A stretch of 64,000 bases of DNA, taken from NCBI GenBank assembly GCA_051362555.1, contig CM120646.1, positions 124,001 to 188,000 on the forward strand, written 5' to 3'. Positions 6,472 to 45,772 of this stretch are shown piece after piece; the stretch's first letter is position 1, and every line of letters starts with the position of its first letter. A model generated the notes under the pieces. The model was not told where the DNA came from. It searched no databases and saw only the letters and a list, made by a program, of their open reading frames with translations. The DNA comes from Lingula anatina. Lineage: Eukaryota > Animalia > Brachiopoda. Position numbers and translations under genes: made by a program.

Positions 6472-7311
6472 GCCAGTGGCAACTACAGAATAAGTATATC
6501 TGTGTATTTGATACCTATTCCATCCAGTGGTAACTACAGAATAAGTTTATCTTTGTATTTGATACCTATTCCAGGCAGTGGCAACTACAGAATAAGTTTA
6601 TCTTTGTATTTGATACCTATTCCAGCCAGTGGCAACTACAGAATAAGTTTATCTTTGTATTTGATACCTATTCCAGCCAGTGGCAACTACAGAATAAGTT
6701 TATCTTTGTATTTGATACCTATTCCAGCCAGTGGCAACTACAGAATAAGTTTATCTTTGTATTTGATACCTATTCCTGCCAGTGGCAACTACAGAATAAG
6801 TTTATCTTTGTATTTGATACCTATTCCAGCCAGTGGCAACTACAGAATAAGTTTATCTTTGTATTTGATACCTATTCCAGCCAGTGGCAACTACAGAATA
6901 AGTTTATCTTTGTATTTGATACCTATTCCAGCCAGTGGCAACTACAGAATAAGTTTATCTTTGTATTTGATACCTATTCCAGCCAGTGGCAACTACAGAA
7001 TAAGTTTATCTTTGTATTTGATACCTATTCCAGCCAGTGGCAACTACAGAATAAGTTTATCTGTTTATTTGATACCTATTCCAGCCAGTGGCAACTACAG
7101 AATAAGTTTATCTGTGTATTTGATACCTATTCCAGCCAGTGGCAACTACAGAATAAGTTTATCTGTTTATTTGATACCTATTCCAGCCAGTGGCAACTAC
7201 AGAATAAGTTTATCTTTGTATTTGATACCTATTCCAGCCAGTGGCAACTACAGAATAAGTTTATCTGTGTATTTGATACCTATTTCCAGCCAGTGGTAAC
7301 TACAGAATAAG
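6472..7311 (+). repeat. 51-bp minisatellite, ~16.5 copies, each containing the 3' splice site of the first coding TBC1D5 exon
   Basis: Unit ...tttgtatttgatacctattccAG|ccagtggcaactacagaataag. The last copy (tatttccag, exon start 7290) runs into unique exon sequence. Confidence 0.9.
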
Positions 7312-7366
7312 ACAGAAAGAGAAAACCAAGGCCGGGTCTGAGGTGTTTCCAACCAAGGAGGATATC

Positions 7367-10300
7367 ATGTCCACTTTGGAGCAGTTTGGAGAAAAGAATA
7401 ACTCAGGTAAATCAAGCATTTTGACATTATTGATATTATATTATGTATAGATTACTATTGGTTGTTGAACCAGATGATTGCTATTAGAAAAGTTGAGGTA
7501 GACCAGCTTTCACTCCAAACTTCTATCTGTGAACCATTCTTTCCAGTAACACTGAGCTGATAACAACATATACACAAGTGTCCTTCCATTTATTTTGAAG
7601 ATGTCTTCTGACTGACTTAGTCTATTCAAACAAACATATGAAATGAAGTTAATAAAATCAATTCTCTTCATAGATGATAATTATTTAGCACAAGCTAAAA
7701 ATAGTCTTTATACTATAAGGTTTTAATATGAAGAGTATTTTCAGCTTGTGCTAAATAATTACCATCTATGATCCAAATACCAACCTTAGGAACATTTTTG
7801 CTCATTAATTCTGTTGTATTGTTCACATTTAGCTTACTTAATGAGAACCTCCATATAGACAGCTCTATAACAGTATTTGTGTCATTATTAACTTCCACTT
7901 CATCCTATATCTCAGAGTGTGCCCCGCCCACTGATAGCACCCCCAGTACCCCAGGGAGACTAGACTACAGCGGCTATGAGCAGATAGACACACCCAATAC
8001 TGGCTCTAGTATTACTAATTCCTACTGGTAAGCTATAGTCCTAAACCAGCTATGAACAGATAGGCACACCCAATACCGGCTCTAGTATCACTAATTCCTA
8101 CTGGTAAGTATAGCCCTAAACCAGCTATGAACAGATAGACACAACCAATACTGGCTCTAGTATTACTAATTCCTACTGGTAGGTATAGCCCTAAACCAGC
8201 TATGAACAGATAGACACACCCAATACCGGCTCTAGTATCACTAATTCCTACTGGTAAGTATAGTCCTAAACCAGCTATGAACAGATAGACATACCAAATA
8301 CCGGCTCTAGTATCACTAATTCCTACTGGTAGGTATAGCCCTAAACCAGCTATGAACAGATAGACACACCCAATACCGGCTCTAGTATCACTAATTCCTA
8401 CTGGTAAGTATAGTCCTAAACCAGCTATGAACAGATAGACACACCCAATACCGGCTCTAGTATCACTAATTCCTACTGGTAGGTATAGCCCTAAACCAGC
8501 TATGAACAGATAGACACACCCAATACTGGCTCTAGTATCACTAATTCCTACTGGTAGGTATAGCCCTAAACCAGCTATGAACAGATAGACACAACCAATA
8601 CTGGCTCTAGTATCACTAATTCCTACTGGTAGGTATAGCCCTTAACCAGCTATGAACAGATAGACACACCTAATACTGGCTCTAGTATCACTAATTCCTA
8701 CTGGTAGGTATAGCCCTAAACCAGAAGCCTGCTAGTCTGTGGAAATACCATTTGCTTGACCAGAATAAATACTGACACTGAGAAGTTTTCTACACATTAA
8801 TAGAATCCATCTGTAATCATAATGTAGGTAGCATTGACAGAGTTATTATCTAAAATTAGGTCACCTTGACCCATATTTCATGTAGAAGTAGGTCATACTG
8901 ACCCAAATGACCCAATGTTTATTTGACCCTGTTGACCCATTTATGCTTTGTTTCCAGTTCTGAGTGGGAGAGGCTATTTGAACGTCCAGATTACATGAAG
9001 ATAGTCAGGCGGCTGGGCGTGGAGGGGCACCTGAGGAGTACACGATTCAGGAGTGTCATTTGGAAGGTATATGCAGCCCCCCCTCCCCCCCCCCCCCCGA
9101 CACGTAGTCTTCCCTCAAACTCTTCCTTCCCCAAAATGAAAGTAAAAGAGACTGAAAATATTTAATGCAGAACTTGCTTTTGATTTTTGACAAATATTTT
9201 GTTTAGACAACAAATTTTTTGTTGTATATAAATATTATTCTCAACAGTGTAATTCATATTATGTTTGCACAAGGAAATGTCCTTGATAGTGCATCAATTT
9301 TTAGAAGAACTGGTACGTGACAGAGGTGAATATTATACATCTTAACATAATGAAAATTTTGCATTACATTTCATTGTATCCATGTCTCACCTTGTAGCTG
9401 TACCTGGAGGTACTTCCAGAAGACCAGGATCAGTGGATAGAGAAGACAAGACAGAAGAGACAGGAGTATGAGGACCTTAAAGACAAGGTGAGATGGGAGA
9501 ATTTAAAGATTAGGGTGTATAAAATCATATCATAAATCTGTCGTCTGAAACAGACTCCTGTAGAAAAGCTATAGTTCATTTTGTTATATTTACAAACATT
9601 TATCTAAAATTATTTACTAGAATACAAATGCTTTATGATAAATTACCCATTAGACATCTCTGATCAGAATATCTTGTGTTCATGTTTCATAAGTTGATCA
9701 CCAACCCGCGGCAAGGTCAAGCAGAGGACCTGAGTGTGAACAACCCACTGTCACAGGCTGAGGAGGTATGTAGGTTCAAGGTCGTAGGTCTTAGTCACTG
9801 TGACCTGAGTGTGAACAACCCGCTGTCACAGGCTGAGGAGGTATGTAGGTTCAAGGTCCTAGGTCTTAGTCACTGTGACCTGAGTGTGAACAACCCACTG
9901 TCACAGGCTGAGGAGGTACAGGCCTAACCAACTACCAGAATCGGCACCTAAGGATCCTGAATAAACCGGTATATCGGACCACACTACCCGTTTTCAAGGT
10001 GTGAGTCAGATCGCATTTCGGAGTATCATACCCCAGAACAAATTTTGTAGGACGACTGCGGGCTCATCCACGCTCGGCTGAACAACGTACCTTAAACTGT
10101 ACTCTTACTTTGGAGTACTCTATTTCATTGTCTCTATGGGGGTATATGGGGACTTTACGACATTCGGTTTGAATGTTTTAACCACTTTTGATAGGGCTTT
10201 TTTGCATTGTATTAGATTAATGTGGCAGTCTAAGGTTCATCTAGGTGGCTTTCAAATTTATGCACCCGGTTTTAAAATCATATAGCGATTAAATACGACA

Positions 10301-13300
10301 ATCGTTTACTATCCAATCAAGGTGACAGCCGAGCGTAGGCTCATCCTGTCGGTGTTCTGACTGATACTCCGAAATGCGATCTGACACACACCTTGAAAAC
10401 GGGTAGTGTGGTCCGATATACCGGTTAATTCATGATCCTTAGGTGCCGAGTCTGGTAGTTGGTTAGGCCTGAGGTATGTAGGTTCAAGGTCGTAGGTCTT
10501 AGTCACTGTGACTTGAGTGTGAACAACCCGCTGTCACAGGCTGAGGAGGTATGTAGGTTCAAGGTCCTAGGTCTTAGTCACTGTGACCTGAGTGTGAACA
10601 ACCCACTGTCACAGGCTGAGGAGGTATGTAGGTTCAAGGTCCTAGGTCTTAGTCACTGTGACCTGAGTGTGAACAACCCACTGTCACAGGCTGAGGAGGT
10701 ATGTAGGTTCAAGGTCCTAGGTCTTAGTCACTGTGACCTGAGTGTGAACAACCCACTGTCACAGGTAGAGGAGGTATGTAGGTTCAAGGTCGTAGGTCTT
10801 AGTCACTGTGACCTGAGTGTGAACAACCCACTGTCACAGGTAGAGGAGGTATGTAGGTTCAAGGTCCTTGGTCTTAGTCACTGTGACCTGAGTTTGAACA
10901 ACCCACTGTCACAGGCTGAGGAGGTATGTAGGTTCAAGGTCCTAGGTCGTAAGCACTTGGATGTTAAAAGCCAGCTTAGTGTAACAGGTCTAATATGGAA
11001 AGTGTGTTTTCAGATTATTAAAGAGGTATAATATTGAAGTCTCATAAAAAATCAGCATAGAAACTGTTTCAGTACAATTGTTGTTAACAAAAGTGTTAAA
11101 AAAAGATTTAAATTTTTAAAACGTCTTGGTAAGATAACTTTATTTAATGATTGAAGGATGAAATGAGATTTGTTTTTACATTGCAGAGTCCATGGAACCA
11201 ATTTTTTCTGGACAACGAACTGAGACTGACGATCAAACAAGATGTTATTAGAACGTAAGTTGTATTTCTGGATTATGGAAGGAATGTATATCTTTTATTG
11301 GACGTAACTTTTGTGTAAAATTTCTTGACTTTTTATCAGTGATGTTTTTTTTTTCATTGGGGTTTATTTTGGGTTGATAGGATGTGCCTGCAAAATGATT
11401 TCTCAGAGATTTTAATGCATTCATTTTAGGACACAGCAGTCGTGTATTGCCAGTTGGTGGCCATATTGTGGTCTGAAAGACATTCTCTCTTAATTTAAGT
11501 AATAGCTGCAGTATGGGATTCCCCAGCAAGGAGCATTTCTATTTAACTGATGTCTGGATTATCTTATCATTGCAGCTACCCAAGAATAGAATTTTTCCAC
11601 TCCAACAAAGTCAGGAACATGATGGTGGACGGGTTGTTTATATATGCCAAGATCAAGCCAGATGTGTCTTATAGACAGGTTATTCTCTATTGTCATGTGT
11701 ATTAGTCCTCTGGCTGTACAGACTGAACTAGTCCAGCTTCTCAACAACCTTCTTGAAACAACAGTCTATTTGGTGAACAGTAATGTCTCTGGTTCATGCT
11801 AGCAGTTCATAAGCTCACTGCACTTCTGGGATTTCAAATTTAATTTACCAGTTTGTTTAGTCTTATTTTGTCCGTGTCTAAGCATTCCTTTGAGAAGCTG
11901 GGTTATTTCAGGTTTGACAGATGTCGTTATTGTTAGATGCTGCTGTCACTTGGCAGATATCTCTCAGTTTCTACTTCATTCAGCATGATGCATGTTAGAG
12001 ATATGTTGTAATGTGCCATATTATTATAATATCTTCTCCCTCTCTGTTTTTATTAGATCTGATTTCGTTTCAGACTCAAGTTGTTGGTATTAATTTTATG
12101 ATTTATTTTTTCAGTTCCACTTGGGACTATCCTTTCGAAGTGCTTTCTGTTATGTGTTCAAGTCTTTGTGTATATGTTATAGAACCCTTAGTTTGTTGCA
12201 TGTCTTCATTACTGTATGGATAGGCTCTTGACAAGTGTTTGTGGTAGTCTTTGTCCACCAGTGTAGTACAGTGTAGCTTCCAGCAGTGAAGGGGAGGTTT
12301 AAATAGATGATTCCATTCTAAAACTATGTAATAATTGTAACATTCTAAAACATAGAACATTATATGCATTTTTATTTGAATTATTGATCTATCATTTGTT
12401 TTAGAACCCCATGTGTGTCTGTGTATAATTTTATTCTTGTGTTTCATAGATGTATGCTTTAACTTCACCTGTCACTTTGTATGAAAAGAGGACCTAAATT
12501 CATCAAAATTTTGCACTGCAGTTTATTTCAGTTGTTTCATTGGATTTCCTTTCTCCCTTATTTATATTATACAAGGTCCATTCACACTAGGTCACTTAAG
12601 ACCGAGTCTTAGAATAACTTGCCCAGTCTACTAGTAACTGAGTGAGTTGTCTTTGTACCTCAATGTGGATAACAGGGAGAGCCCACTCTACCTCTGACAT
12701 GAAGACCCTGGGTTGCTCAAGCCAGTTGTCTGATGTAACATAGTTACATTACCAATCCATATTTGGCCTTGTCTGAATGGACCTGTAGATTCATTTGTTG
12801 TTGTTGTCTGCAGTGGTATTTTCATTATTTTAGTTTTCCTGAGCTGGAATTTTTCCAGCATGACAAGCACGGTGTTCAACCTATGATGGTCAAGATTTTG
12901 TTTTGTTTTGCCCGTGCCACAGACTCTAAATACAAGCAGGTTTGTGTTTCAGTTCTATTGGATAACAACAGTAAGTCAGTAACTTGCAATTAAAGTGAGC
13001 CCTTAGGTAAGCACAATAGGTCATTATAGACAATTGGCCCTCATTTGTTAAACTTTCATTTTACCATTTTAAGCTCTAAAATTTCCAATGAATTCTGTGT
13101 AAGAAATGACTTTTGGAAGCTGTGCCTGTAGCAGTGGGTGGGATGTCATGCCATTTTATCTGAGACTGGGTTCCCTTATCTAGATCAATCTAATGGGATC
13201 GATTCATCTCCAAGGGTTTTCTTGCTAAATTGCTTTTAGCTTAAGCGGCTTAGATGTCTGGCATGCCTACAGAAGCTGGTAAATGATAATTAATCCCCCC

Positions 13301-16300
13301 CCCCCCCCCCCCCCGCAGCTTCAGTAGACGTGACAGACATCTAAGCTGCTTAAGTTGATCGCAATTTATCTAGAATCTCCAGTTAGTAGGATAGGGTCCA
13401 GGTATGGTCCCTTAATCTGGACTTAAAGCAATTGAGCGGTGATAGTTGCCTACATTGATTTTTATCTCCATCTGTAAGATCTATATTTATCATGGGTGGT
13501 TATTGTGTTACGTTATAGAAATAAGGAGGATTTCATGAGAGCAGAAAGAAATTTTGAAGACAGCATAAAAGTCAGGCTCTTAACTAGTCTGTGATTTCCT
13601 CTTTGTTCTAGTTTCATACAAACTGTGTTAGAGCAGCACTTGTGCTTAGTTTCTATGTAAAAACCTGACCAGTGCCATTTTGTCTCTACTTTATACTGAA
13701 ATAAAGTGTGTGTCTTAAATATTTTAAAATGATAGTTATCATAATGATATTTGCTTAAAATCTAAAAAAAAAAAGAAACCTTCAGTATCAAAACATAGGA
13801 TTTATATGGAAACAAAATGGCACTGATTTTCTTCATGTTGTGTCCCTGTCTGCTTGCTTTCATCAGCTTTCCTTATTATCTTGATTTGTATTTACTTTAT
13901 TTATTATCAACATCTAGATATTTAACTATTATAACTATTGTTAATAGCATTTACAAGTTATCCACATAATTAAGAAGCATCAAACATGACAGAATATAGG
14001 GTTTAGATTTTCAGAGGACACCTCAGAATCTTATAGTTTTCACATTCTCTGGGACTTTATACATAGAATGTCAAAAGATGATACTTTGGTTATAATTACT
14101 GCTTAGAGGAGCATTTATAAATTTTGACAAACAGTTGGGAGACAAATATGAACACAACTTATTTTTGCCTAATTAATCATGAACTATCTGAACTGTTGAA
14201 ATTTAACAGAAGGAAAAAATAGACAGTCATGGTTAGTTTGCCTCCCATGTTCATACAAGGCATCTCAACAATCCAGCCACTTATCTGTGAATGTTATTTC
14301 AGGGAATGCATGAACTTTTGGCACCTCTGATATTTGTGCTCCACTGCGATCACCAGGCTTTCCTTCACGCCACTGAGATGGAATCAGTAGAGTAAGTAGA
14401 CACTAGTATTATCAAACAAATAGAGCTCAGTACTTCCTTCATGTCAGGGAGATGGAATCAGTAGAGTAAGTAGACACTAGTATTATCAAACATATAGAGC
14501 TCAGCAATTTCTTCATGTCACCAAGATGGAATCAGTAGAGTAAGTAGACATTATTATCAAACAAATAGAGCTCAGCACTTTCTTCATGTCACCAAGATGG
14601 AATCAGTAGAGTAAGTAGACACTAGTATTATCAAACAAATAGAGCTCAGTGCTTCCTTCATGTCAGGGAGATGATGTCAATAGAGTAAGTAGACACTAGT
14701 ATTATCAAACAAATAGAGCTCAGTACTTCCTTCATGTCAGGGAGATGAAGTCAGTAGAGTAAGTAGACACAAGGATTAAACAAGCAAACAGAGAATAGTT
14801 CCCAGTGAGAGTAAATAAGACCTCTTGAAGAATGGTAAGCCTGTAATTGGACAGTTCCAGTGCCCTGTTCTGTACAGTATGTGTGTGTGTGTATTTAATG
14901 GTGCTATGACCATTCACTATTGTGGTTGATTTGGCATGATTTCTGATATTTTAGCCAGTTTTTAAGATTTTAATTTATGAGATATTTTCAGAACCAACTC
15001 TTTTTAATTTTAAAAAATGGTTATGATTATTTTATGTAATTGTTTTGCAACTATCTTTTTATTGCAGTCAGTTTCCTGATGATCAAAGGTTTGAGATTTT
15101 TTTTTTTTATTCTGTTAAATGACCACATCAGCACCCGCATCTCCTCATTGCCTGTATACTAACAGCAGTTAACATGTCCCCTTGAAGATTTTTTTTAAAC
15201 ATTTCTCTTTCAACAGAATTAAGTTTGCCATGTGTTGTGCTGCAATGCTTATTCTGTACTAACCATTTCTTAGTTTTCATTAAGAAGAAGACTTGATATT
15301 ATTTATAATACCTCGATTATAATTAATCATTGAAGCCTTGGGTTGAATTTTGATTAATTGCTTTTTGCCCTGAAATTTGTTTTTGTTGTTCTCTTCTACT
15401 AACCAGTTTCTTTGTTTTCTTAAGTGGATATTGTTTATGAACTATTTCAACATTAATATCTAATATCCCACTCCTGTCGTTTCAGTCCACACTGTAACAT
15501 TATAGCAATCGCTCCTGGTCTTAATAAGCCTTTATCAGTTCATCACCTTTTTTACTTTGTTATAAAAAATGCTAGCACAGAGGAAAAATGGAATGAATTT
15601 ATATGTATAATTTATCCCTGAATTTTGCATATTCATCTATATGTTAAAGTACATCAGTCAAGTGACATGGTTAATCTAGTTCACATCTTAGAGTGGCTTG
15701 CTATACTGACCACCTGTGCATAATGGTTTCAGGGGCATGCAGGCTTGTATTGCTGCATGCTGCCATCTATAATATTGTCACTAAAAAAAAGGCCTGCTCA
15801 GACTAGAACTTTTACGATGACAATAATATCTATGAGCCTTTCCGCTTGGCCTCAGAATTTGCTTATCTGAGTCATTTTGGTTAACTAATTAACAGAAGTT
15901 TGCCTGTTTTTCACAGTCTCAATTCAGTCTTGTCTGAACAGAACAAAAGAGCAGTGTAAAACATTGTCATGTAATGTGTTACCATGGTGCAGTATGGCAC
16001 AGGACTCACAGCCATGTTCATGGAATATCTCATCTCACTACTAAAGTTTCAGAAAGAAATTTAAACTACACTTTATAATAACATTTGGCCATAATTTAAC
16101 ATAAACAAAATCTACTTTCTCTTTCAGAGACATAGTGAAAGAGTTACTCGACCCACGCTACATTGAACATGATGCATAGTAAGTAAATATAAATATATGT
16201 AAACCTCCCTAGCTCTGTATTTTACCTTTAAGTTATGTCTGTTGTAATACTGATATGCTGGAAAGAGCCTACAGATCTGACTATATATGTATATATATAT

Positions 16301-18504
16301 GAATTGAAATTGTGCCTTTGAAATTCTTTCATGAACATTGTTATCTTGTAAAAATCAAAGTCTTGTGAAAAGGTTATTTTTATAAAGTTTTTGTTTATGG
16401 AAGTGTCTTTTATTTATTTATAAATTGTCTTCCAGCACAATGTTCTGTCAGATTATGGAGACTGTGGAACCATGGTATATTTATTTATTTATTTGTATAT
16501 TATTTATTCATTTATTTATTTATTTATTTATCTTCCAGCACAATGTTCTGTCAGATAATGGAGTATTCATTCATTTATTTATTTATCTTCTAGCACAATG
16601 TTCTGTCAGATAATGGAGACTGTGGAACCATGGTATATTTCCAAAGAAATTTACCCAAACAAGGTATAAAAACATTTTCCTGCTTTTATATGCAAAGTAG
16701 GCTTGCTTTAGTCTGGTTAAAGTAGGCTCAAATCCTTATGAACTTCTCCTTAACCTCATCCTGGTGTGACATTTTAACCGAATGCTCAACTGATCTTTAT
16801 ACAATGAACAAAAATGTGAGATATGTTACTGTTTTAAACCATTTTTATGGGTTTAGTTAACTATTTTGGTCTGGGCAAATAACATAAATAATAGATTTTG
16901 GCTAAAAATGGATAATTAGGTGAAAAAGGCATTTCATCGTGGGATGAGGCTTGAATACGATATATCGCAGATACTTTTCAGTTAGGTAAGTTTAATAAAC
17001 ATTACCAAATACTTCATTCTTTTTCAAAACCTATAATTTCCTTGTTCTTCACATTTTGGCAAATCACAAAAAGACCCCTGAAAATGAACTCAACTCACTT
17101 TTAAACCATTCTTTGGGGAAATATGATTTTATCATTTTTTTCTGACTTGAAAAATTTGGAATAATAACCATATCACATCTTAATTCATTCCCAGAAGCAA
17201 GGAATCATTCATGCCCAGCCATTTGTGAAGCTACAGGATCTGCCGTCTAACGTCATCGTGAATAAACTGATCCGTATCCAGGACTACATCCTGAAGAAGT
17301 ATGACATTGAGTTGCACATGCATCTGGAGAGACTGGAGATTGCGCCGCAGATCTACGGAATGTAAGTGAGAGAGAGAGAGAGAGAGAGAGGGGTAAGGGA
17401 AGAGAGAGAGGGGGATAGAGATATCATCACAGTTCAATAGAATTTATTTAAATGATATAACCTTTTGTTTTCAGACGCTGGGTTCGACTTTTATTTGGCA
17501 GGGAGTTCCCGATGCAGGATCTGCTGGTATTATGGGATGCAATATTTGCTGATGGGATCTCCTTTGACCTGGTGGACTATGTGTTTGTGTCCATGTTACT
17601 GTACATCAGAGACTTGTGTGAGTACATATTTGGTTGCTGACCTATTCTTCAGAATGCACATGAAAAAAGCAAGCTGTTTAAACAGAAGTCCTCCTTCATG
17701 GTATATACTGTTTTTATGTTTTTAATGGAAGCTAATGTGTGTTCATTTTTAATTCCACAAGTTGAGAACCTTATTTTCAGATCATTGTAGTTTACATCAG
17801 TAAGATTTCTCTCTTTATATTCTTTGTAGTGTTAACAGGAGACTATGTAACCTGCCTGACCAGTCTAATGTTATATTTCTCTCTTTATATTGTATAGTGT
17901 TAACAGGAGACTATGTAACCTGCCTGACCAGTCTAATGTTATATTTCTCTCTTTATATTGTATAGTGTTAACAGGAGACTATGTAACCTGCCTGACCAGT
18001 CTAATGTTATATTTCTCTCTTTATATTGTATAGTGTTAACAGGAGACTATGTAACCTGCCTGACCAGTCTAATGTTATATTTCTCTCTTTATATTGTATA
18101 GTGTTAACAGGAGACTATGTAACCTGCCTGACCAGTCTAATGTTATATTTCTCTCTTTATATTGTATAGTGTTAACAGGAGACTATGTAACCTGCCTGAC
18201 CAGTCTAATGTTATATTTCTCTCTTTATATTGTATAGTGTTAACAGGAGACTATGTAACCTGCCTGACCAGTCTAATGAAGTACCCACCTGTAGGTGACA
18301 TCAACTACATGATAGAAAAGGCTTTGTACCTGAGGGAACCAAATGTAAGTGTGAGGGGGCGGCGGGGGGGGGGGGGGGGATATCTATCTGTTTTCACTGC
18401 TGCTTTTCTCCCTGTCTACATATCTTTGTGTATCCAATCTGCCCATATGTGTCTTAACATCTTTGAAAATTTATATGCGTGCTGAAACATTGACAAATTG
18501 AATT

Positions 18505-18572
<68 letters not shown>

Positions 18573-21516
18573 TTAAATTCAAATTAATTCCACCACCTTG
18601 TCATCATTTGTTGTTATTGTCTACATACAGGACAGACCTAAACCTCCAAACTACACATACCAAATACCCAATGCAGCCAAGAAGAGGAGAGATCAAAACA
18701 AAAGTAAGTGTACGAAATTCAGATTAAAGCATTTCTCTTTAAAAGATTTAAGCTACATTGTTTAGTATACATGCATGTTATAATTTTATTAAATAATGTG
18801 TAAATAAAAACTGTTGTCTATTATTCCTTTTCACATAGGCAATATTTGAAAGATGCATTGAGATCTTTAAAAAAAATTAGAAGAGATGAGAAAAACTTGG
18901 CGTCAGTAACATATTTTGCTATCAGCATTCAAGCAAACAGTGAAAGTTCTATAGTAAAATAAAGCTTTACATTTGTCTGATATTTTAGTAACAGCCAGTA
19001 ATTTAGCTGAGAAGATTAAGTCGAGCTTTAACGCTTCAAGTTTTGCTACGCTGACTAGACGAGGAGGAAGCAATCGACCACAGACTATTTCAACGAATCA
19101 AAAGATCTCCAAGTCATCTAGTGAACCAATGAACCTTGTGACAGACAAATCACCAGGTATAGATGGCAGCTGTTGCTTGTCATGGATTGACACTAGATGG
19201 CAGCATTGTATTATATTATATTATAGGTGGAACCACTGTTCCCAGTAGCTGCCATATCATACCCAGATCCATTTCTAATCTAGCATACATTATGAATTAA
19301 ATATTTGCACTTAAAAGCATTTTCTTAATAGCTAACATTTATAACCATAACACTTAAAAATTGATATTTCTTCATGAACAATTAAGTATTATGAACATTG
19401 AACCAATAAGATTTGCAATAAGTGTAACAGTTGTGGTTTGTTTGTGACAGCCATATTGACATTGTATAAATCACACCACTACAGATCAACCTGATAAACA
19501 CGTCTCCCCTTTCCTCACAGATAAAGAGAAGGCTCCCAGTGTACCGGGCAGTAAGAAGACAGGCTCCACTGCCAGTCTATCCAAGATAGAACAGATGACC
19601 ACTGGCCTGGACTCTACCAGTGTGGACAACACCCCCTCAGAGAGTAGCAGTAACAGCATGGCACGACTGGAGACAACGTCCAGCGCTGGTCAGCTGCCCA
19701 GTGGAGCAGTTAGTGGGGGAAGAGTGGAGCAGTTTGAGGCAGTCAACAGCAAGGGTCAGCCTATCAGACCACCGGGTACCCCTCCAACCAGACATAAGGG
19801 GAAGAAGTTTGCACCATCTGTAATGGTACGTTACAGCACAGGGCAAGAAGGGGGGGGGGGGGATAATCATACTAGCCTAACTTTCTATTTCATCAGAATG
19901 ATTATTGTATGACGAAATCAGTTGTGAATTAATTGTGCAAAGAAGTAGTGAGGTATTAATAAGAAAAATGAAACTTTTCAAAAAATCACTGAGGTTTTCA
20001 GTTTATTTAGTTAACTTGCTGTCTATATATCTCTGTCCTAGGAGTCTGAGCTGAGTCATAAACTGGCGTATGCCCAGGGCCAAGTCAATGATATGGAAGC
20101 TATGGCAAGATACTGTGCCAGTAAGATGGATATACACATAGGTAAGTGATGTATACATATGGAAGTCAGACACTGTGCCAGTAAGATGGATATACACATA
20201 GGTAAGTGATGTATACATATGGAAGTCAGATACTGTGCCAGTAAGATGGATATACACATAGGTAAGTGATGTATACATATGGAAGTCAGACACTGTGCCA
20301 GTAAGATGGATATACACATAGGTAAGTGATGTATACATATGGAAGTCAGATACTGTGCCAGTAAGATGGATATACACATAGGTAAGTGATGTATACATAT
20401 GGAAGTCAGATACTGTGCCAGTAAGATGGATATACACATAGGTAAGTGATGTATACATATGGAAGTCAGATACTGTGCCAGTAAGATGGATATACACATA
20501 GGTAAGTGATGTATACATATGGAAGTCAGATACTGTGCCAGTAAGATGGATATACACATAGGTAGGGAGTCCTTGATGTTTATGTTTAGTTTGTTTTATA
20601 TGTGTGTGTGCGTGTGTGTATGTGTGTGTCTTGATGAGTGAAGAAGTCTGTTGATTACCTAATCCAATGTTTTAGTCATATTTTGATCTTTTATACAGTT
20701 TTATTGATGGGGGACATGTTCTATCTTACAGAAAAGCTTCAGTCAGAGCTGCTACATCAGAACGTGGAGAATGAAGATGAAATACTCCTGTCTTTAGCTG
20801 GACTAAAGCAGGTACCTGACATCCTCATGATGGTTTAGTGTTTGTCTTAGGTGCACTCTTTTCTCAGGTGCACTGCATTTAATTGGTAACTCCAGACTGT
20901 TATAATTAATTGGTAACTCCCCACTCTTTTATCAGTCATTAAATTGGTAACTCCTGACTGAAATATCAAATAGTTTATAGTAACATTCACTGTGATGTCT
21001 TGTTTGAAGGTGCGTGACATTCTGAAGGGAACTCTCAAATTCCAAAGAGGTCTGGAGTCAGAAGAGTTTTCTATTAGAGAAAACCATTACCAAGAGGTAC
21101 ATCAGCAAGCTGAGTCATCATTGGACAGAAAGAAGTCAGATGACCAATTTTCAACATCTTCATCCAATCAAAATGGGACATTCAATATGCCTGCTGTACA
21201 GCAATTGTATGCTGGCAGCAGTGAGGATGGTTTTAGTGACAGTCCTTCCCCAGTTTTGGAGAACAAAACATTCTTGAGTGATAACCCTACTAACACACAT
21301 GGGCGATATGTTATTGAACCTTCCCCAAATTTTAGAGCTGACATTGTTATGGCTGGAAGTCCACAAACTAAGAAACGCTACAGTCACGATTTTAGCCGGC
21401 GCAGACACGGCAGCGGGAGAAGAAGCCACTCTGACTCAGAAGACGCTGCTGGTTTATTAGAAAGCTCAATGGAAGTACACAATCCTACTGGGAAGCTGAG
21501 TTTTGATTGGTCCTGA
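7367..21516 (+). CDS. TBC1D5: TBC1 domain family member 5 (Rab7 GAP, retromer-associated), multi-exon
   Basis: Exons: 7367-7406, 7916-8027, 8958-9066, 9398-9487, 9694-9765, 11187-11254, [11576-11678 or 12834-12939], 14303-14391, (15068-15088 optional), 16128-16178, 16594-16663, 17195-17361, 17475-17617, 18238-18344, 18631-18703, 18989-19156, 19521-19825, 20042-20141, 20732-20811, 21010-21516. All are GT-AG and phase-consistent, ~817 aa. Motifs match TBC1D5: EWERLF, LRSTRFRSVIWK, NNPLSQ, IKQDVIRT (Arg finger), YKQGMHELLAPLIFVLHCDHQAFLHA, PQIYGIRWVRLLFGREF, LAGLKQVRDILKGTLKF. The start codon is inferred. Confidence 0.93.
7969..8724 (+). repeat. 75-bp minisatellite, 10 copies of exon 3' end plus 5' splice site
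   Basis: tcctactg|GTaag/GTagg donors at 8028, 8104, 8179, 8254, 8329, 8404, 8479, 8554, 8629, 8704. Confidence 0.9.
9727..10948 (+). repeat. 75-bp minisatellite, ~9 copies of exon 3' end (DLSVNNPLSQAEE) plus donor, interrupted by a MITE
   Basis: gaggag|GTatgt donors at 9766, 9841, 9916/10474 (split by the MITE), 10549, 10624, 10699, 10774, 10849, 10924. Confidence 0.9.
9919..10471. mobile_element. ~550-bp MITE with ~110-bp TIRs and 5-bp TSD AGGTA
   Basis: CAGGCCTAACCAACTACCAG ... CTGGTAGTTGGTTAGGCCTG, with aggta at 9914-9918 and 10472-10476. Close second copy at 31509-32059. Confidence 0.9.
11576..11678 (+). CDS. TBC1D5: TBC1D5 Gln-finger exon, variant A (YPRIEFFHSNKVRNMMVDGLFIYAKIKPDVSYRQ)
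   Basis: cattgcAG|c...tatagacag|GTtatt; 103 nt, phase 2 to 0, open frame, ends in YxQ. Confidence 0.75.
12834..12939 (+). CDS. TBC1D5: TBC1D5 Gln-finger exon, variant B (FPELEFFQHDKHGVQPMMVKILFCFARATDSKYKQ)
   Basis: attttAG|t...tacaagcag|GTttgt; 106 nt, phase 2 to 0, open frame, ends in YxQ. Confidence 0.8.
13165..13402. mobile_element. Palindromic MITE-like element; related copy at ~51180-51370 and a more distant one at ~37722-37932
   Basis: gctaaattgc...ttaagcggcttagatgtctg is mirrored by cagacatctaagctgcttaag...gcaattta. The same arms recur at 51200-51360. Confidence 0.6.
14358..14770 (+). repeat. ~74-bp minisatellite, 6 copies of exon 3' end plus donor
   Basis: (g)taga|GTaagt donors at 14392, 14466, 14540, 14611, 14685, 14759. 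Confidence 0.85.
15068..15088 (+). CDS. TBC1D5: Candidate 21-nt frame-preserving TBC1D5 microexon (DQFPDDQR when spliced)
   Basis: ctatctttttattgcAG|tcagtttcctgatgatcaaag|GTttga; phase 2 to 2 matches the flanking exons, no stop. Confidence 0.45.
16426..16640 (+). repeat. Triplicated 3' splice site plus exon start separated by (ATTT)n
   Basis: AG|cacaatgttctgtcagat at 16436, 16539, 16594; only the last continues as the full exon. Confidence 0.8.
17805..18278 (+). repeat. 68-bp minisatellite, 7 copies of polypyrimidine tract, acceptor and exon start
   Basis: tAG|tgttaacaggagac acceptors ending at 17829, 17897, 17965, 18033, 18101, 18169, 18237. Confidence 0.9.
18508..18571. repeat. (CT)n microsatellite
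   Basis: Direct reading. Confidence 0.9.
20108..20564 (+). repeat. 60-bp minisatellite, 8 copies of exon 3' end plus donor
   Basis: cacatag|GTaagt every 60 bp from 20142 to 20502; the last copy is GTaggg at 20562. Confidence 0.9.
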
Positions 21517-24690: not shown

Positions 24691-27600
24691 TCACAGTTCT
24701 GTATGTAATCCACGGCTTTGGTTCTCCTCGTCATACTTCACCACCCACTTGGACGGCTGTTCACACGTCAGCTGACCATCTGGGCAAAACCTGCGATATG
24801 TCACGTCCTGGGAAAACCCAAGAATCTCGCGCTCCTCTTGGATACGGAATGAGAAAGTGGACACATAGGAGCCAATGAAAACCCTGCAATGAACAAGCAG
24901 ATTCCACACTTTTCTAAAATATGTTGATGGAATGGCATAACCAGTCAAAAACAAAAGGCTAAGATTTACTATGATTAGAATATGTAGTAATATTTTAAAA
25001 AGTGAACCATAACTTCAGAGAATTTTTATTAAATAGCTTGTATACCACTGTGCAAAAACATGTAAAGATTCCATCACAGCTGATTGATTATAGGATTCCT
25101 GGCCAAATATGTAAAATTTTCTACATCACTATCAATGCATTACGACACTTACCTTGCGTGTGCACATATCCACTGATCTATAATAGCAATACCGCCATCT
25201 TTAAAGGACTCCAGCACCTCTTTGGTAGGAGTATATTTGACTACTTTGTAGCCCTGTAGGTACCCCTTCAACTCCTCAAACTCTGCAAATTAAAAAAAAA
25301 AAAAACATAAACGTAGTGCAACTCATTACCTCCTCAGACAAGTTTAATACATGAACCATGGAGTCCTTGTAATGACCAGACAAAATTTTCTGAACTTAGA
25401 CTTGTGAAGATTCTTTTGTCTATAGCTATTTTTTTTTTTTTTTTTTAGTTTGATCTTACCATCCAATATTTCATCTGCTTGCAGTCAGATTTCATCAGGG
25501 AATGAGGTTGTGACAGGTATGACAACCTGTCACCCCCTCTGGTGTGCTATTTGGTCAGATCCCCCCAACTCCTAGTTTCTCACGTATAGTGTAGAACAGT
25601 TTCATTAGCTATGTTATTATAATAGACTTGTGAAGATTCTTTTGTCTATAGCTATTTTTTTTTTAGCACATATATTTTAGTGGCACATTTCAGCACTAGG
25701 GAAGATGACATTGAATTTCAAGTTTAGCTGTGACAAAGTTAACAGTGTCTAGGTACATATATAAATGGTTCCACAACATTATTTGGTACTTCTTTGGCAT
25801 CACTTAGTGTACAATGGGGCTACTTTACTCTAAAAAACACAAAAAAGGAGCCTCACAAGACAATAACTTTAGATCTTCACCAAAATTCAAAAGAAGTATT
25901 TCTGATAGTACCGGTACTACACAACCATTTTATGACAGACATGATTCAACATTTGAAGAAGAAAGTCTGACAAAGGTAGACACTGAAATCCTCATTTTTA
26001 AGGATGAACATGATGTTCCAAGTAGAAGAGGCCTAACTGACAAAAATATTCCGGAAAAAGTTGTTCACAGAAGCCAAGAAAGCATTTCCAGGTCTTTGTC
26101 TTGGCCATCCATTGCACAAATCATAAATGGACCAGAAGTTCAATTTACCAACCAAGATGACTGCAGCACAACAACATGGAGTAGACTGCGTCTGTCTGAA
26201 CCACTAGACAACAGCAGCAGATCAGGCAGCTATGCTAGTACAGCAAGTCAGACGTTTTTAAGTTTTCCACCTCTAGAAAATGTCAGAGTCAGCAGAGCAT
26301 ACAGCGACATTGGGCTTCTGATACACCAGACATCCTTGGATGAGGAACAAAACTTCCCAATATTTGCAACTAGAGGTAAGTTTCTTTTAATCATTTGGAA
26401 ATAAAAATATGTACACTTCTTTTAATTTTTAAAAATGATTCTATCAGCCATTTTTAAAAGCAATGACTTATAAATCCTCTTCTCCAAAGCAAGGATATAT
26501 GTACTAAATTAATGATAATTGTATAAATGCAAATCATAATTGCATATGTTGTTATAGATGAAGTATTTCATATTCCATACTTATTCTTTAACAATACCCA
26601 GATATGAAAAAAAAAAAAATGAAGTCATAAAAATTGAAACAGTACTGTAGTTGCTACAGAAGGAAACTTTTTTTCATGGCTGTTATATTAACTGAATACT
26701 TTTCATTAATTGTTTTCCCAGATAATGAGAGGCAGGAACCTTGTGTGACCCACAACTACATCACCGTGATAAACCATTCTGGATCCCAGACCAGTTTCCA
26801 AGTAGGAGATGGTGGCAACACAGTGTATTTTGGCAGGAATGAAACTATAAATGAACTGTTATAAAAGCAAACATGAAGCTTATTAGTGTGGTGGAAAAGA
26901 GGGATTCACGTGCAAACAATTGTAGCGGTGCAATTTCTCCGCAATCCAGAATAATGACGCTGTGATTTCTTTTTCATAAATTTAATAAGATAATGAAATA
27001 TTTACGCTACTAAGTGCACCAGCTGCTAATCGTCTGCTGCGCCGCCATGCTCCTTTTTCCGCTGACGCTACCCCGGTTAATGCACACCGGCACTATATTT
27101 ACCCCGTTACATGATGTATCATACCTAAATTTTCTTAACCCTTGATGTCTAAATTTTTTTATTCTTAGGTGTTCCCAGAGCAAAAAATGCCCCATGGGGA
27201 TTAAATTTAATGATATATAACACCCTGTGGCTCAAATAAGTGCATTTGAAATAATAATATAACTTTGTATTTATTGGGTGTGTGTAAAAGTTGCCATCTA
27301 CTTCTAGTCTATGGCAAAAACAATCATGATGCTTATATTTTGTATTTATTGGGTGTGTGTAAAAGTTGCCATCTAGTCTATGGCAAAAACAACCATGATG
27401 CTTATATTTTGTATTTATTGGGTGTGTGTAAAAGTTGCCATCTAGTCTATGGCAAAAACAACCATGATGCATATATTTTGTATTTATTGGGTGTGTCTAA
27501 AAGTTGCCATCCAGTCTATGGCAAAAACAACCATGATGCTTATATTTTGTATTTATTGTGTGTGTGTAAAAGTTGCCATCCAGTCTATGGCAAAAACAAT

Positions 27601-35600: not shown

Positions 35601-38600
35601 AGTCTATGCCAGAATTTGTACAGACCCTCCAAATAGAGTTCCTTTGGGGGTATCTGAAAGATCAAGTCTACAGAAACAACCCCAACACCATCCCAGAATA
35701 ATAAAAATAAAATTAATGGCGTCCATGTTCTTGGGCTACATTTATACTTGGACACCCTGTAAAGAAGGTCTTAATCAAAGATAAAATATTTTTATAGTAA
35801 GTAGGTTAAAATGATGAGCTAGTGAACAGTGCCTTATTATGAAGATAAACGGTGGTGAGAGCACTTAGTTGGTGGCACTCAAGGTGAAACTTCCCTGTTT
35901 CACACATGGATAACTACTGAACTTTTTTATATAAGCAACAGGTATTCTAGCATCAATGAACTAGCCATGGGGTTGGGTTTCTCCAAAATATCTTCCAGTA
36001 AAACATACCACATGTCTTCAGCAAGTTTCACAAGTTACCAGAAATACAATAGTGCAAGAGCTACAATGTATAAGAAACATAGTACACCACTGAAAGCATT
36101 TGGCAAAGACAGTCAACCACAGGAAGACACAGAACTACTCACCAACGAAGATGATGTCTCCAACAGAAGATACCTAACAGGCAAAAACAACCAAAGAAAG
36201 GCCAAAATCAGTAGATACCTAGATAAGGGCGGAATTGCCAGATATTTGAGTTGTCCGAACATCGCAACAAGTCCGTCTTCTAACAAAAACGAACCAGGAT
36301 TTGCCATGCAAGGTGACTTCACTAGACCATCACTGCAGTCTTCTTTTACTTGCAGCCCATCAGATCTTAAAGGTGCCAAATCATGCTTGTTGAAGCAAGG
36401 TAAGCTTCTTTTAATCGATTAATAATAACACAAAAAAAGAACACTTCCTCAGTTACATTTTATCATCCATTTTAATAAACAATGACTACCTCAATGAAAG
36501 CAAGCAGACAAAATTAATGCTTATTGCATAAGTACATCTATAATTGCTTTCAAAATTATAGGTCCTTATAGATGATGTGTTGGTTATTCTTCTCCCCTTT
36601 GAAAACATTTGATACTCCACACCTAATCTTTAACAAAACCTAGTTAAGGGAAATAAAAGATAACAGAATACAGAAAAAATGCAGTTGTATACTAAAACAA
36701 TTGAAACAATAGTTGCTACAGAATGTAACTCTTATAATTTTATTGAATACTTCTTGATTGTTTTTCCAGATAATACCAGCAAAAAGGAGGGTAATGTGAT
36801 CAATGTGTACCATTATTACAATATCCTACCTGGATCCCATGTCAATCTCCAAGTAGGAAATGGAAACAGTATCAATTTGAACAAGGATGAAACTACAGAT
36901 GAACAAACCTAGCCGAGGATACATACATATCATTTAACAGACTGTAAAAGAATATCAAGTACAGGGGCGGATCCAGAGATATTTTCTGACAGTCTTCCAA
37001 ATTATTTTTGTTAATCCATCCTCCATTTTTGACCGTCTTCCGACAGAAAATATTAGATACCCGTCAATGTAAACTTTAAAATCTGACCGTCTTCCGGAAG
37101 ACCCAGAAGACGGCCTAAATCCGCCCCTGAAGTACTGTACTATACTGCACTAGTAGCTGGGGTAGCACTTGCAATTTTTTTTTTGCTAAGCCAAATCACC
37201 ACATTTTTGTCAATTTCTTATCAAAATGGTTAGAATTTGGCTAAAACAAGTCAAATCAGGCCCTTTTTCTTTAGCCAATTTAAGTCAGTTTTAGCATTTG
37301 GCTAAATTGGCGAGTGTTAGCGCTACCCCAGAGTAGAGTGATGGGCTGGTCCCTCACCAGAGTGAGATGAAATGAGCTGTCATTTCATTTATTAACACAA
37401 AATGATCATGGACATCTGACATACTTACTGATGGCAAAGAGGCTCCATTTTCATCTCCGTCTGTCTATCAATTTGTTTTTTCATTTGTCATCAGACTAAA
37501 TCAAAAAGTTTTGGATGGATCTGATAAAATATTCAGGATAGGTTATCATTGGCTAACTTGCACCACATTCACAACCAGAGTTGACCAGTGGACTGAATAT
37601 GGCCGATGCACTTGAAAGCTTGCCATGTAATCACCATGGGAAATCTATTCAGTGTACATTAGTGGATTATGCGACAAGCTTTCAAGGCAGACCACCATAT
37701 CTGATCCACAGATCTGTTACACCCCATTTCCATAGATTAGATCGAGCTACTTTAGATCGACCTAACTCCCTGGGGTTCACGCTAAATAGCTGTCAGCCGG
37801 GCGGACACGAAAGTTAATTACCCCCTTACAGCTTGTAGTAGGCGGGACGGACATTTAAGTCGGATTATCTGAAAGTAATCTAGTGAGACTCCCTGCGGGG
37901 ATAGATCGATCTAAAATCTATGGGAATAGAGCCTTAGTCCATGGATAACCTTCTTCTGAATGCACCCTTAAAAAGTGATTAGGATTTGGCGGTGACCTTT
38001 CATCCACATCATCTGGACCTAAGAACCTTTAAACGTTTCTTCACGCTAGCAAGATACACAAGGCCAATGACTTTGACCTTGTGCAATGTCCTCTCAATTC
38101 CACAATTTATCTTAGGATCTTTGGCATTGGTCTGTGCTCTTTAAGTACTTTTCTAGTTTACAAACTCATAATGACAAGATTTTATGTAATACTCATGTGC
38201 CTGACACTTGTTCTTTGCAGAGAATTGGGTGGATTTTTGTATTCATGTGATTAGAAATACAAATTCTGGACCTTCCTGTTGTGAAGCTTAAACTTATGGA
38301 AGCCCTCCCCCCCCCCCAAAAAAAAAAAAAAAAAAAAAAACATCTGATCCATGTACTCATACAAGATATGTTAAGATATGATACCACAACTAAATGTTAA
38401 CTTATGACGGCCCTGTGTTAAGTCTACTATAACCTTCTATGCACATATTCTACATATATCCACATACATAAGGCACTCTGCACAGGATATCATATACCCA
38501 ATTCAATGAATTTTCCTGATAATAAAAAAGCAATACTCTTCCTGACCAAGCATTGCTCAGCCAGTCCAATGTTTTATTCCATTAACATTAAGGAACCCAT

Positions 38601-44600: not shown

Positions 44601-45772
44601 AGGTAAATCCTTGACTGATAATAGTTTTGCAAAGCTGACCCCAGTTCTCCAGGCATATATCTTATCTCATATCATATCAAACAAGTGGCATGTGGCAACT
44701 GCTAATTGTGTTAGATGTGACAGACACTGATTTTGTTAGATGTGACAGATACTGATTGTGTTACGTGTGGCAGACACTGGTTGTGTTAGATGTGACAGAA
44801 GCATTGTCACCATATAAAGGCCTAAGAAAAGATGGGATTTCAAGCCAGACATCTTTTTATCTTTGTAAATCTATCCTATTCTCACACACTAGAGGAGCAC
44901 GCACAACCAAGCTGAGATGCTAGATGAGATGTTAGAAATAACTGTCCACATTCTCCAGGTAATACTGGCAACTGTGAGTACAGTGAGAAAGTTAGAAGAC
45001 AGTCTGTTAGGTGTGCTGGAGAAGACAGTGTGTTAGGTGTGCTGGAGAAGACAGTGTGTTAGGTGTGCTCAACCAGGAAACAGTGATTTGGTGTGTACAG
45101 ACACAGACTTAACTTTACAAAGATGACCAATTTGACATCATCAACTAAGAGTTAAAGTGTCTAAGGCACAACATTGGAGTTATTGTTATCTGCCCCCTCC
45201 CCCCCCCATATCTCAGTAAGATTCTGAGTGAATACCCTCAGCTATGACCACAGTGTACTGCAGTGTACGAGCAGGCAGCTGTAATACTCTGGTTTCATAC
45301 TGGCCATGCACTTTGTACTTTCACAAAACAAATAAAAACTATTAGCCAATCAATTTTTAGCAAAACAAAGTCAAAATGACAGAACTATAAAAATATCCCA
45401 ATTTCAAAAGCCCAAGAACTTTATGTTCAGCATTTGTCTACAATGCCCCCAGTGTGCCTAGACAAGGACAGGGTGGACCGACATGGCAAGACAAACTGTT
45501 GTGCTAGTAACACTTACATCCCAATACCATTTGTTAGCAAAGAAGTCATGTTGTAAGTGTTCTGCCCTAAGCAAGCAGACAGACCTAAGATAGAAGATGT
45601 CAGGTGTTAGTCCAGGTAACAAGTAACAGGTAACATGGATGATGTATGCTGTGTGTGGACCGATTATTACAGGAACATATCAGAATATGTTTGTCATTAA
45701 ACGTCAAAACTATGTACATGGCAAACAGGGTTACAGAAAATAGAAAGTAAAGCACAAGCACAACCACCATCT

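What the first reader, a model, noticed from the sequence alone, without database searches (positions are those of the whole stretch)
11576..12939. Duplicated, frame-exclusive exon carrying the catalytic glutamine finger of TBC1D5
Seen: right after the Arg-finger exon (IKQDVIRT) come two homologous open exons, YPRIEFF...VSYRQ (103 nt) and FPELEFF...SKYKQ (106 nt). Both are phase 2 to 0 and join GMHELL; including both shifts the frame. Knowledge: TBC GAPs use the IxxDxxR and YxQ dual-finger mechanism, and TBC1D5 acts on Rab7 with retromer. Inference: swapping the helix between the two fingers could tune Rab specificity or catalytic rate. It is notable that both neighbouring genes show duplicated exons in or near the active site.
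Basis: partly seen in the sequence, partly recalled or inferred. Interest (0 to 1): 0.75.

Follow-up and report, generated by a model that had tools for sequence, protein, structure and literature searches.

The report
Swappable catalytic exon in Rab7 off-switch
The TBC1D5 gene of the lamp shell Lingula, whose human counterpart switches off the endosome-sorting protein Rab7, carries two interchangeable versions of the exon between its two catalytic residues; both are spliced, the same pair is annotated in snails, clams, octopuses, a chiton and a ribbon worm, and the rarer, more conserved version likely makes a retuned form of the enzyme (untested).

Summary
Confirmed. The window holds Lingula anatina TBC1D5. 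Exons A (11576-11678) and B (12834-12939) are homologous, phase 2-to-0; including both or neither gives an early stop. In 7 RNA runs, upstream-to-B joints were in all 7 (66 reads), upstream-to-A in 2 (10 reads); no A-to-B joint was listed. The A-to-downstream joint was not seen directly, and three runs show A unspliced. Both forms are annotated in 23 species (21 molluscs, a nemertean, Lingula); A exons form one clade (100/100) and are more conserved than B (80% vs 50%). Only one form appeared in arthropod, deuterostome and annelid models read. Both keep the Gln finger. A swaps a Glu that is invariant in 23/23 B and 11/11 outgroups for Arg/Lys, four residues after the Arg finger. Best reading: B is the everyday Rab7-GAP form, A a minor, regulated, retuned form; function untested. 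It is an ancient homologous mutually exclusive exon pair, a known kind, already implicit in RefSeq models; my paper searches found no description. The scan noted similar pairs in other genes, not in TBC1D5.

The parts
7289..21513 (+). TBC1D5 coding span (approximate), Lingula anatina; Pfam RabGAP-TBC residues 109-404
   Evidence: tblastn of P0001/P0050 on the window; names; Pfam E 5.7e-25
9691..9765 (+). Constitutive exon ending in the Ins1 stretch (VPS29-binding loop in human TBC1D5); outside the swapped part
   Evidence: profile match to PDB 5gtu_B, the TBC1D5 peptide, E 2.2e-8; PMC5105194 passages
11187..11254 (+). Constitutive upstream exon with the IxxDxxR motif; Arg-finger codon (R190) at 11250-11252; strong donor GTAAGT; phase 2
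   Evidence: all 76 listed joints start at 11254
11576..11678 (+). Exon A (minor, derived, conserved): 103 nt, residues 192-225; Tyr192, Arg194 (codon 11583-11585), Gln finger codon 11676-11678; donor GTTATT
   Evidence: upstream joint in 10 reads of runs X7, X8; orthologues in 23 species
11679..12833 (+). Intron between A and B (1155 nt); two TGCATG elements at 11989 and 12197 (weak hint of Rbfox-type control, motif recalled); partly covered by unspliced reads in X1-X3
12834..12939 (+). Exon B (major, outgroup-like, fast-evolving): 106 nt, residues 192-226; Phe192, Glu194 (codon 12841-12843), Gln finger codon 12937-12939; donor GTTTGT
   Evidence: upstream joint in 66 reads of 7 runs; downstream joint or matching loose ends in 6 of 7 runs
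14303..14391 (+). Constitutive downstream exon (starts with the Gly-Met-His-Glu stretch after the Gln finger), phase 0

Best explanation
An old tandem duplication gave TBC1D5 two alternative exons for the 34-35 residues between the Arg and Gln fingers; transcripts splice in A or B, and the rarer A form likely makes a still-active but retuned Rab7 GAP (rate or regulation, untested). SHOWN: exon anatomy and frames; splicing into both exons; B major in all runs; A sample-restricted; single origin of A; stronger constraint on A; both fingers kept. INFERRED: double inclusion or double skipping is removed by nonsense-mediated decay (early stops with many junctions downstream); A is switched on in a particular tissue or stage, over two weak donors; the substrate is Rab7 with retromer, by orthology (Ins1 loop kept); the Tyr/Arg-Lys loop just after the Arg finger plus a repacked helix shifts the catalytic geometry or electrostatics. 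The splicing anatomy alone I put at about 0.93; the confidence below is for the whole statement including the retuned-GAP step.
For: Frames and stops. Joints 11254-to-B: 10, 15, 17, 6, 7, 8, 3 reads in X1, X2, X3, X4, X7, X8, X9; 11254-to-A: 4 (X7) and 6 (X8) reads, each from 2 starts; study P3 10:18 vs studies P1+P2 0:48, Fisher p 1.4e-5 by reads, 0.0075 by starts. In X8, 8 reads cover 11630 but only 1 covers 11684, so most stop or are clipped at A's donor. All 3 listed RNA variants in exon A are synonymous; 2 of 6 in B change the residue (small numbers). 23 species with both forms: A is 34 aa in 23/23, B 34-37 aa; mean identity between genera 80% vs 50%, A higher in 248 of 249 pairs (not independent). 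A one clade, 100/100, 15 rows, stem 0.56; still one side of a branch (SH-aLRT 94) with 10 unnamed rows added. 19 of 19 unnamed genomic fragments have A flanked by S/R and V, as AG|N and GT ends would give; order A-then-B in P0088 (Elysia crispata) and P0279. A joined on both sides in RefSeq models and in an 818-aa protein on a 3,702-nt Logan contig, P0016. Column 3: Glu in 23/23 B and 11/11 outgroups, Arg/Lys in 23/23 named A and 18/19 unnamed A; mean net charge +1.1 vs -1.3; polar-column entropy 0.54 (A), 1.67 (B), 1.34 (outgroups). Arg-to-Gln spacing 35 in A, as in Gyp1 R343/Q378 (PMC5902221) and human TBC1D5 R169/Q204 (PMC7539009). In human pairs, ligand-binding residues are mostly kept and isoforms fine-tune (PMC9741552 passages).
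Against: The A-to-14303 joint was not listed in the 4 runs laid over it and no loose end behind 11678 was shown (one row hidden). In X1, X2 and X3 the reads on A are unspliced at one or both edges (10 of 10 X1 reads at 11687 run into the intron). The only spliced A reads come from one study whose animals differ from the window, so population, tissue and stage are confounded. No activity data. No structure shows that column 3 or the helix touches the Rab: my model is poor (mean pLDDT 49; 60-83 over the exon) and the primary complex papers were not held. 21 of 23 paired species are molluscs; across a more diverse A set identity is 67%, and the Ser-Asn-Gln patch is mainly molluscan. The unchanging polar residues lie largely on a helix that may face away from the Rab.
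Confidence: 0.5

Rival explanations
1. Same splicing, but exon A supplies a new docking surface (a partner protein or a dimer contact) on the outer face of the inter-finger helix; catalysis on Rab7 is little changed.
For: Positions fixed in A but free in B and outgroups are mostly polar (Arg15 23/23, Asn16 22/23, Asp20 20/23, Lys27 23/23), the pattern of a conserved surface. In TBC1D17 the helices next to IxxDxxR and YxQ form a dimer interface (PMC13090580 passage).
Against: No partner identified; known retromer contacts (Ins1, Ins2) lie outside the exon; some of these positions vary in unnamed A exons.
Confidence: 0.2
2. Exon A changes substrate: the A form is a GAP for a Rab other than Rab7, as the coq-2 exon switch changes substrate.
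For: Charge reversal of an otherwise invariant Glu four residues after the Arg finger; long stem then slow change in the tree; coq-2 precedent in molluscs and annelids (PMC7434440 passages).
Against: The Arg-finger helix, the YxQ motif and the whole C-terminal subdomain are shared by both forms; many TBC GAPs are promiscuous (PMC5902221), and domains outside the TBC domain contribute to Rab binding (PMC13090580).
Confidence: 0.13
3. The two proteins are functionally equivalent; the pair is kept only because each exon is recognised in different cell types (split of splicing control).
For: Both keep all catalytic residues and the hydrophobic core; several molluscs and all annelids read show only B models.
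Against: Does not explain class-wide fixed differences (3 disjoint columns) or A being more constrained than B and than single-exon outgroups.
Confidence: 0.08
4. Exon A is mainly an unproductive or truncating exon: it is spliced in, its weak donor is read through to a stop at 11703-11705, lowering TBC1D5.
For: Unspliced reads across A's donor in X1 (10) and X2 (2); A-to-downstream joint not seen; a Pecten model also runs through A's donor (P0233).
Against: Protein-level constraint up to the last codon, fixed 34-aa length, GT right after the Gln codon in 19/19 fragments, A joined on both sides in 66 of 278 proteins held, synonymous-only variants; X8 reads mostly end at the donor.
Confidence: 0.06
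5. Assembly artefact or dead duplicate, like the minisatellite copies of exon edges elsewhere in this gene.
For: The gene has several tandem repeats that copy exon ends.
Against: A and B are only about 42% identical, each has orthologues in other phyla, both are spliced; no tandem repeat was found in 11000-14300.
Confidence: 0.01

Closest known systems
Homologous mutually exclusive exons / tandem duplicated exon substitutions (PMC5740500, PMC8373072, PMC9741552)
   Same: Adjacent homologous exons of similar length and equal phase, length not divisible by three, one common and one regulated exon, ancient, catalytic residue kept in both.
   Different: No TBC1D or RABGAP gene name among the curated human events (0 hits in the PMC8373072 supplement); no TBC1D5 in the 10 readable PMC5740500 supplements, only a 63-nt TBC1D19 candidate. 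Here the pair seems lophotrochozoan and lies between the two catalytic fingers.
coq-2 exons 6a/6e (PMC7434440)
   Same: Exclusive homologous exons at an enzyme core, one ancestral-like and one distinct, present in molluscs and annelids.
   Different: There the switch of substrate is shown by experiment and tied to anaerobic metabolism; here nothing is assayed and the enzyme is a Rab GAP.
RAB6A / RAB6A' internal exon pair (listed in the PMC8373072 supplement)
   Same: Duplicated-exon swap in the Rab switching machinery.
   Different: It is in the GTPase, vertebrate, with few differences (recalled); here it is in the GAP with about 58% of residues different.
TBC1D5 of human and RBG-3 of C. elegans (PMC5105194, PMC7539009)
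   Same: TBC domain, IxxDxxR and YxQ fingers 35-36 residues apart, Ins1 loop.
   Different: Outgroup models read here have a single B-like segment; no alternative catalytic-core exon turned up in the searches.

Membership tests
Homologous mutually exclusive exons | Adjacent exons homologous, similar length, same phases | tested here: met
   103/106 nt, phase 2-to-0, 15/36 identical, E 2e-7
Homologous mutually exclusive exons | No exon-joining reads, or joining shifts the frame (R1 in PMC5740500) | tested here: met
   A+B gives a stop at B's third codon; no A-to-B joint listed in 7 runs (listing needs 3 reads from 2 starts)
Homologous mutually exclusive exons | Junction reads from B that bridge A (upstream to B) | tested here: met
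   66 reads, 7 of 7 runs
Homologous mutually exclusive exons | Junction reads from A that bridge B (A to downstream) | tested here: inconclusive
   Not listed in Lingula reads; upstream-to-A seen in 10 reads; joined form present in RefSeq models and a Logan contig protein of another animal
Homologous mutually exclusive exons | Both exons conserved in relatives, same order and edges | tested here: met
   23 species at protein level; order in P0088, P0279; edges inferred from flanking residues in 19/19 fragments; no relative's DNA was read
Homologous mutually exclusive exons | Tissue- or stage-regulated choice | tested here: inconclusive
   A spliced in 2 of 7 runs, both of one study; tissues are coded and unknown
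Steric or U12-type exclusion | Branch point within about 50 nt of the upstream donor, or mixed U2/U12 sites | tested here: not met
   Intron 1155 nt; AG dinucleotides 22, 47 and 92 nt before B's edge, so no long AG-free zone; all sites GT-AG and unlike the recalled U12 donor
TBC1D5 (dual-finger TBC Rab GAP) | TBC domain with IxxDxxR and YxQ | tested here: met
   Pfam PF00566 for both forms; motifs in both; top fold matches Gyp1 1fkm/2g77 on a weak model
TBC1D5 (dual-finger TBC Rab GAP) | Ins1 retromer-binding insertion | tested here: met
   Profile match to 5gtu_B, E 2.2e-8
TBC1D5 (dual-finger TBC Rab GAP) | GAP activity on Rab7, raised by retromer | not testable with these tools

The most novel reading that the evidence does not exclude
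A splice switch that arose in an early lophotrochozoan lets one TBC1D5 gene make two GAPs with different Rab substrates or partners: a conserved, cell-type-specific (perhaps nerve or muscle) A form whose reversed charge beside the Arg finger redirects the retromer-bound GAP away from Rab7. It would be a natural swap experiment for the open question of what sets TBC-Rab specificity.
Probability: 0.15. Interest if true: 0.8.

Novelty: new member of a known kind. Interest (0 to 1): 0.55.

Why it matters
How TBC GAPs choose and time their Rab substrates is poorly resolved. This locus offers two natural versions of one GAP that differ only in the segment between the catalytic fingers, both kept since molluscs, brachiopods and nemerteans parted (over 500 million years, recalled). 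That makes a clean, cheap test of what the segment does. It also marks a lineage-wide, likely regulated layer of endosome and retromer control in molluscs and kin that automated annotation records but the papers I could search do not describe.

Tried and rejected
The run search listed no indexed RNA holder; 9 raw-read runs of the same species label were offered and 7 laid, X5 and X6 not. A search for shorter A-type proteins found no candidate; the 50%-representative search then found 21. Third copy of the exon: none. A Lingula counterpart of the 10-aa insert seen in octopus and pulmonate models: 5 AG..GT candidates in 11255-11575, none resembling it, no joint in reads. Competing RNA hairpins: 55 inverted pairs in 11255-14302, the best near A (11714-11744 / 11890-11920, 77%) is weakened, not kept, by read variants at 11721 and 11729; rejected as evidence. 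TGCATG: 2 in the A-B intron, but the motif is not enriched in the window (31 seen, 47 expected); weak hint only. Steric and U12 exclusion rejected. Full-length fold: low confidence, rmsd about 15 to TBC structures, used only for rough helix limits. Four structure papers were not held, so Rab contacts in the exon are unresolved. Paper searches without a description of this event: (listings seen); the human TBC1D5 skipped exon in PMC10615768 is a cassette event with no domain listed (passages). Two PMC5740500 supplements were too large to read and the PMC9741552 supplement held was short (15,271 characters, 0 hits), so a listing there, including for Drosophila, is not excluded.

Full report
1. 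Observation. After the exon 11187-11254, which ends in the IxxDxxR motif at phase 2, come exon A (11576-11678, 103 nt) and exon B (12834-12939, 106 nt), each with an AG acceptor and a GT donor right after a Gln codon, then exon 14303-14391. Either exon alone keeps the frame; both together stop at 12840-12842; neither stops at about 14328-14330. The peptides are 15/36 identical (E 2e-7). No third copy lies between 11255 and 14302 (32 candidates scored).

2. Identity. A downstream exon found 47 relatives, the best being Lingula anatina TBC1D5-like; that protein maps over 7289-21513 and carries Pfam RabGAP-TBC. Of the 4 RefSeq models in its cluster, X2 and X4 use A, X1 and X3 use B. The Ins1 loop that binds VPS29 in human TBC1D5 is present upstream (match to 5gtu_B; PMC5105194, passages).

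3. RNA. Nine raw-read runs were offered; I laid 7 (6-30% of each run), X1 twice. Upstream-to-B joints: 66 reads, 7 of 7 runs. B-to-downstream: joints in 4 of 4 runs (3, 1, 9, 8 reads) and matching loose ends in X1, X2, X3 (7, 15, 18). Upstream-to-A: 4 reads in X7 and 6 in X8, each from only 2 starts; the tool places it one base late because those animals have a synonymous change at 11576. No A-to-B or skip-both joint was listed (threshold 3 reads from 2 starts). Against a simple picture: the A-to-downstream joint was not listed, and in X1-X3 the reads on A are unspliced at one or both edges. In X8, 8 reads cover 11630 but 1 covers 11684, which fits use of A's donor. A use differs between studies (10:18 vs 0:48; p 1.4e-5 by reads, 0.0075 by starts), but tissue, stage and population cannot be separated. 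Listed variants: 3 of 3 synonymous in A, 4 of 6 in B.

4. Conservation. Of 278 proteins held, 182 carry a B-type segment, 66 an A-type, 1 both, and 29 could not be classed. Both forms are annotated in 23 species: Lingula, the nemertean Lineus, a chiton, 3 octopuses, 9 bivalves and 8 gastropods. An Elysia crispata model and unnamed fragment P0279 hold A then B, the order seen here. Only B-like segments appeared in the arthropod, hemichordate, echinoderm, tunicate, fish and annelid models read, in the nemertean Tubulanus and in several molluscs; this is absence from models, not from genomes. A is 34 aa in 23/23, B 34-37 aa. Mean identity between genera is 80% for A and 50% for B (249 pairs, A higher in 248; pairs not independent). 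A exons form one side of a branch with 100/100 support and a long stem, while B mixes with outgroups (48 rows, only 34 columns). A search of 1.84 billion representatives with exon A gave 21 hits, 19 of them unnamed genomic fragments (14 distinct); all 19 are flanked by S/R and V, as conserved phase 2 and phase 0 edges would give. Several are 56-64% like the named A set, so further lineages carry A; I did not determine which. With 10 of them added, A stays one side of a branch (SH-aLRT 94). In a hand-picked diverse set of 13, A identity is 67%, so part of the 80% reflects mollusc sampling.

5. What differs. Both forms keep Pro2, the core Phe/Leu-Phe positions and Tyr-x-Gln. Three columns are disjoint between classes: position 1 (Tyr/His vs Phe), position 3 (Arg/Lys vs Glu) and column 16. 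The Glu is invariant in 23/23 B and 11/11 outgroups and lies four residues after the Arg finger. A has no Cys (23/23), B has one or two (22/23). Polar columns are far less variable in A (entropy 0.54) than in B (1.67) or outgroups (1.34). A weak model (mean pLDDT 49; 60-83 over the exon) puts the exon on a loop, a short helix, a long helix (201-217) and the Gln segment. The Arg-Gln spacing is 35 in A and 36 in Lingula B, against 35 in Gyp1 (PMC5902221, PMC3676764, passages) and human TBC1D5 (PMC7539009, passage). Whether these residues touch the Rab I could not establish.

6. Mechanism. Shown: one-of-two splicing anatomy, use of both acceptors, B major, A minor and under stronger constraint, fingers intact. 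Inferred: exclusion by frame plus nonsense-mediated decay (the common case: 60% of human clusters have lengths not divisible by three, PMC5740500 passages), with steric and U12 routes not fitting; regulated choice over two donors that depart from consensus at +3 onward, with two TGCATG elements as a weak hint; A as a retuned Rab7 GAP (0.5). Rivals: new partner surface (0.2; TBC1D17 dimerises through helices beside these motifs, PMC13090580 passage), changed Rab substrate (0.13), equivalent proteins (0.08), unproductive exon (0.06), artefact (0.01).

7. Known and new. It works like, and on all but one inconclusive test belongs to, the homologous mutually exclusive exons. Closest cases: coq-2 6a/6e (PMC7434440, passages) and RAB6A (row in the PMC8373072 supplement). 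No TBC1D or RABGAP entry is in that curated human list, and TBC1D5 is not in the 10 readable PMC5740500 supplements (two files unreadable). Five paper searches (listings only) showed no description; subscription papers are not covered. RefSeq already models both forms automatically. The scan's notes hold no TBC1D5 entry but two similar pairs in other genes.

8. Verdict. Real, ancient, expressed, previously unremarked as far as searched; a new member of a known kind with an open and directly testable function. Interest 0.55.

Noticed in passing
window 45518-45584 and 43450-43522, minus strand: POFUT2 (O-FucT) has a second candidate exclusive pair: homologous 67- and 73-nt exons, both length mod 3 = 1, AG/GT edges, between exons near 46130 and 42640. 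No RNA or orthologue test done.
   Followed up: partly
proteins P0014, P0058, P0024, P0075, P0123 (Octopus, Physella, Biomphalaria): An optional 10-residue insert sits between the Arg-finger exon and the A/B exon (with A in the Octopus and Biomphalaria models read, with A or B in Physella); looks like a 30-nt microexon or alternative edge right after the Arg finger. No counterpart found in Lingula.
   Followed up: partly
window 6472-7311, 7973-8724, 9727-9918, 10471-10948, 14375-14770, 17805-18278, 20108-20564: Minisatellites of 51-75 nt, several of which copy an exon edge together with its splice site, giving rows of decoy donors or acceptors in TBC1D5 introns.
   Followed up: no
window 11450-12400: Runs X1-X3 show unspliced reads concentrated on and around exon A but few in the intron after B: possibly slow or detained splicing around the minor exon.
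   Followed up: partly
window 13219-13375: 60-nt inverted repeat (82%) with many partly matching reads from elsewhere: likely a small mobile element.
   Followed up: no
window 25808-26401 and 35859-36419, each followed by a short open stretch at 26631-26861 and 36664-36909: Two long open frames, each followed by a similar-looking short one, without Pfam match for the long ones; perhaps two related small genes.
   Followed up: no
RNA runs X7-X9 on window 11050-14398: These animals differ from the window at many sites that X1-X4 share with it, suggesting a divergent population under the same species label.
   Followed up: no
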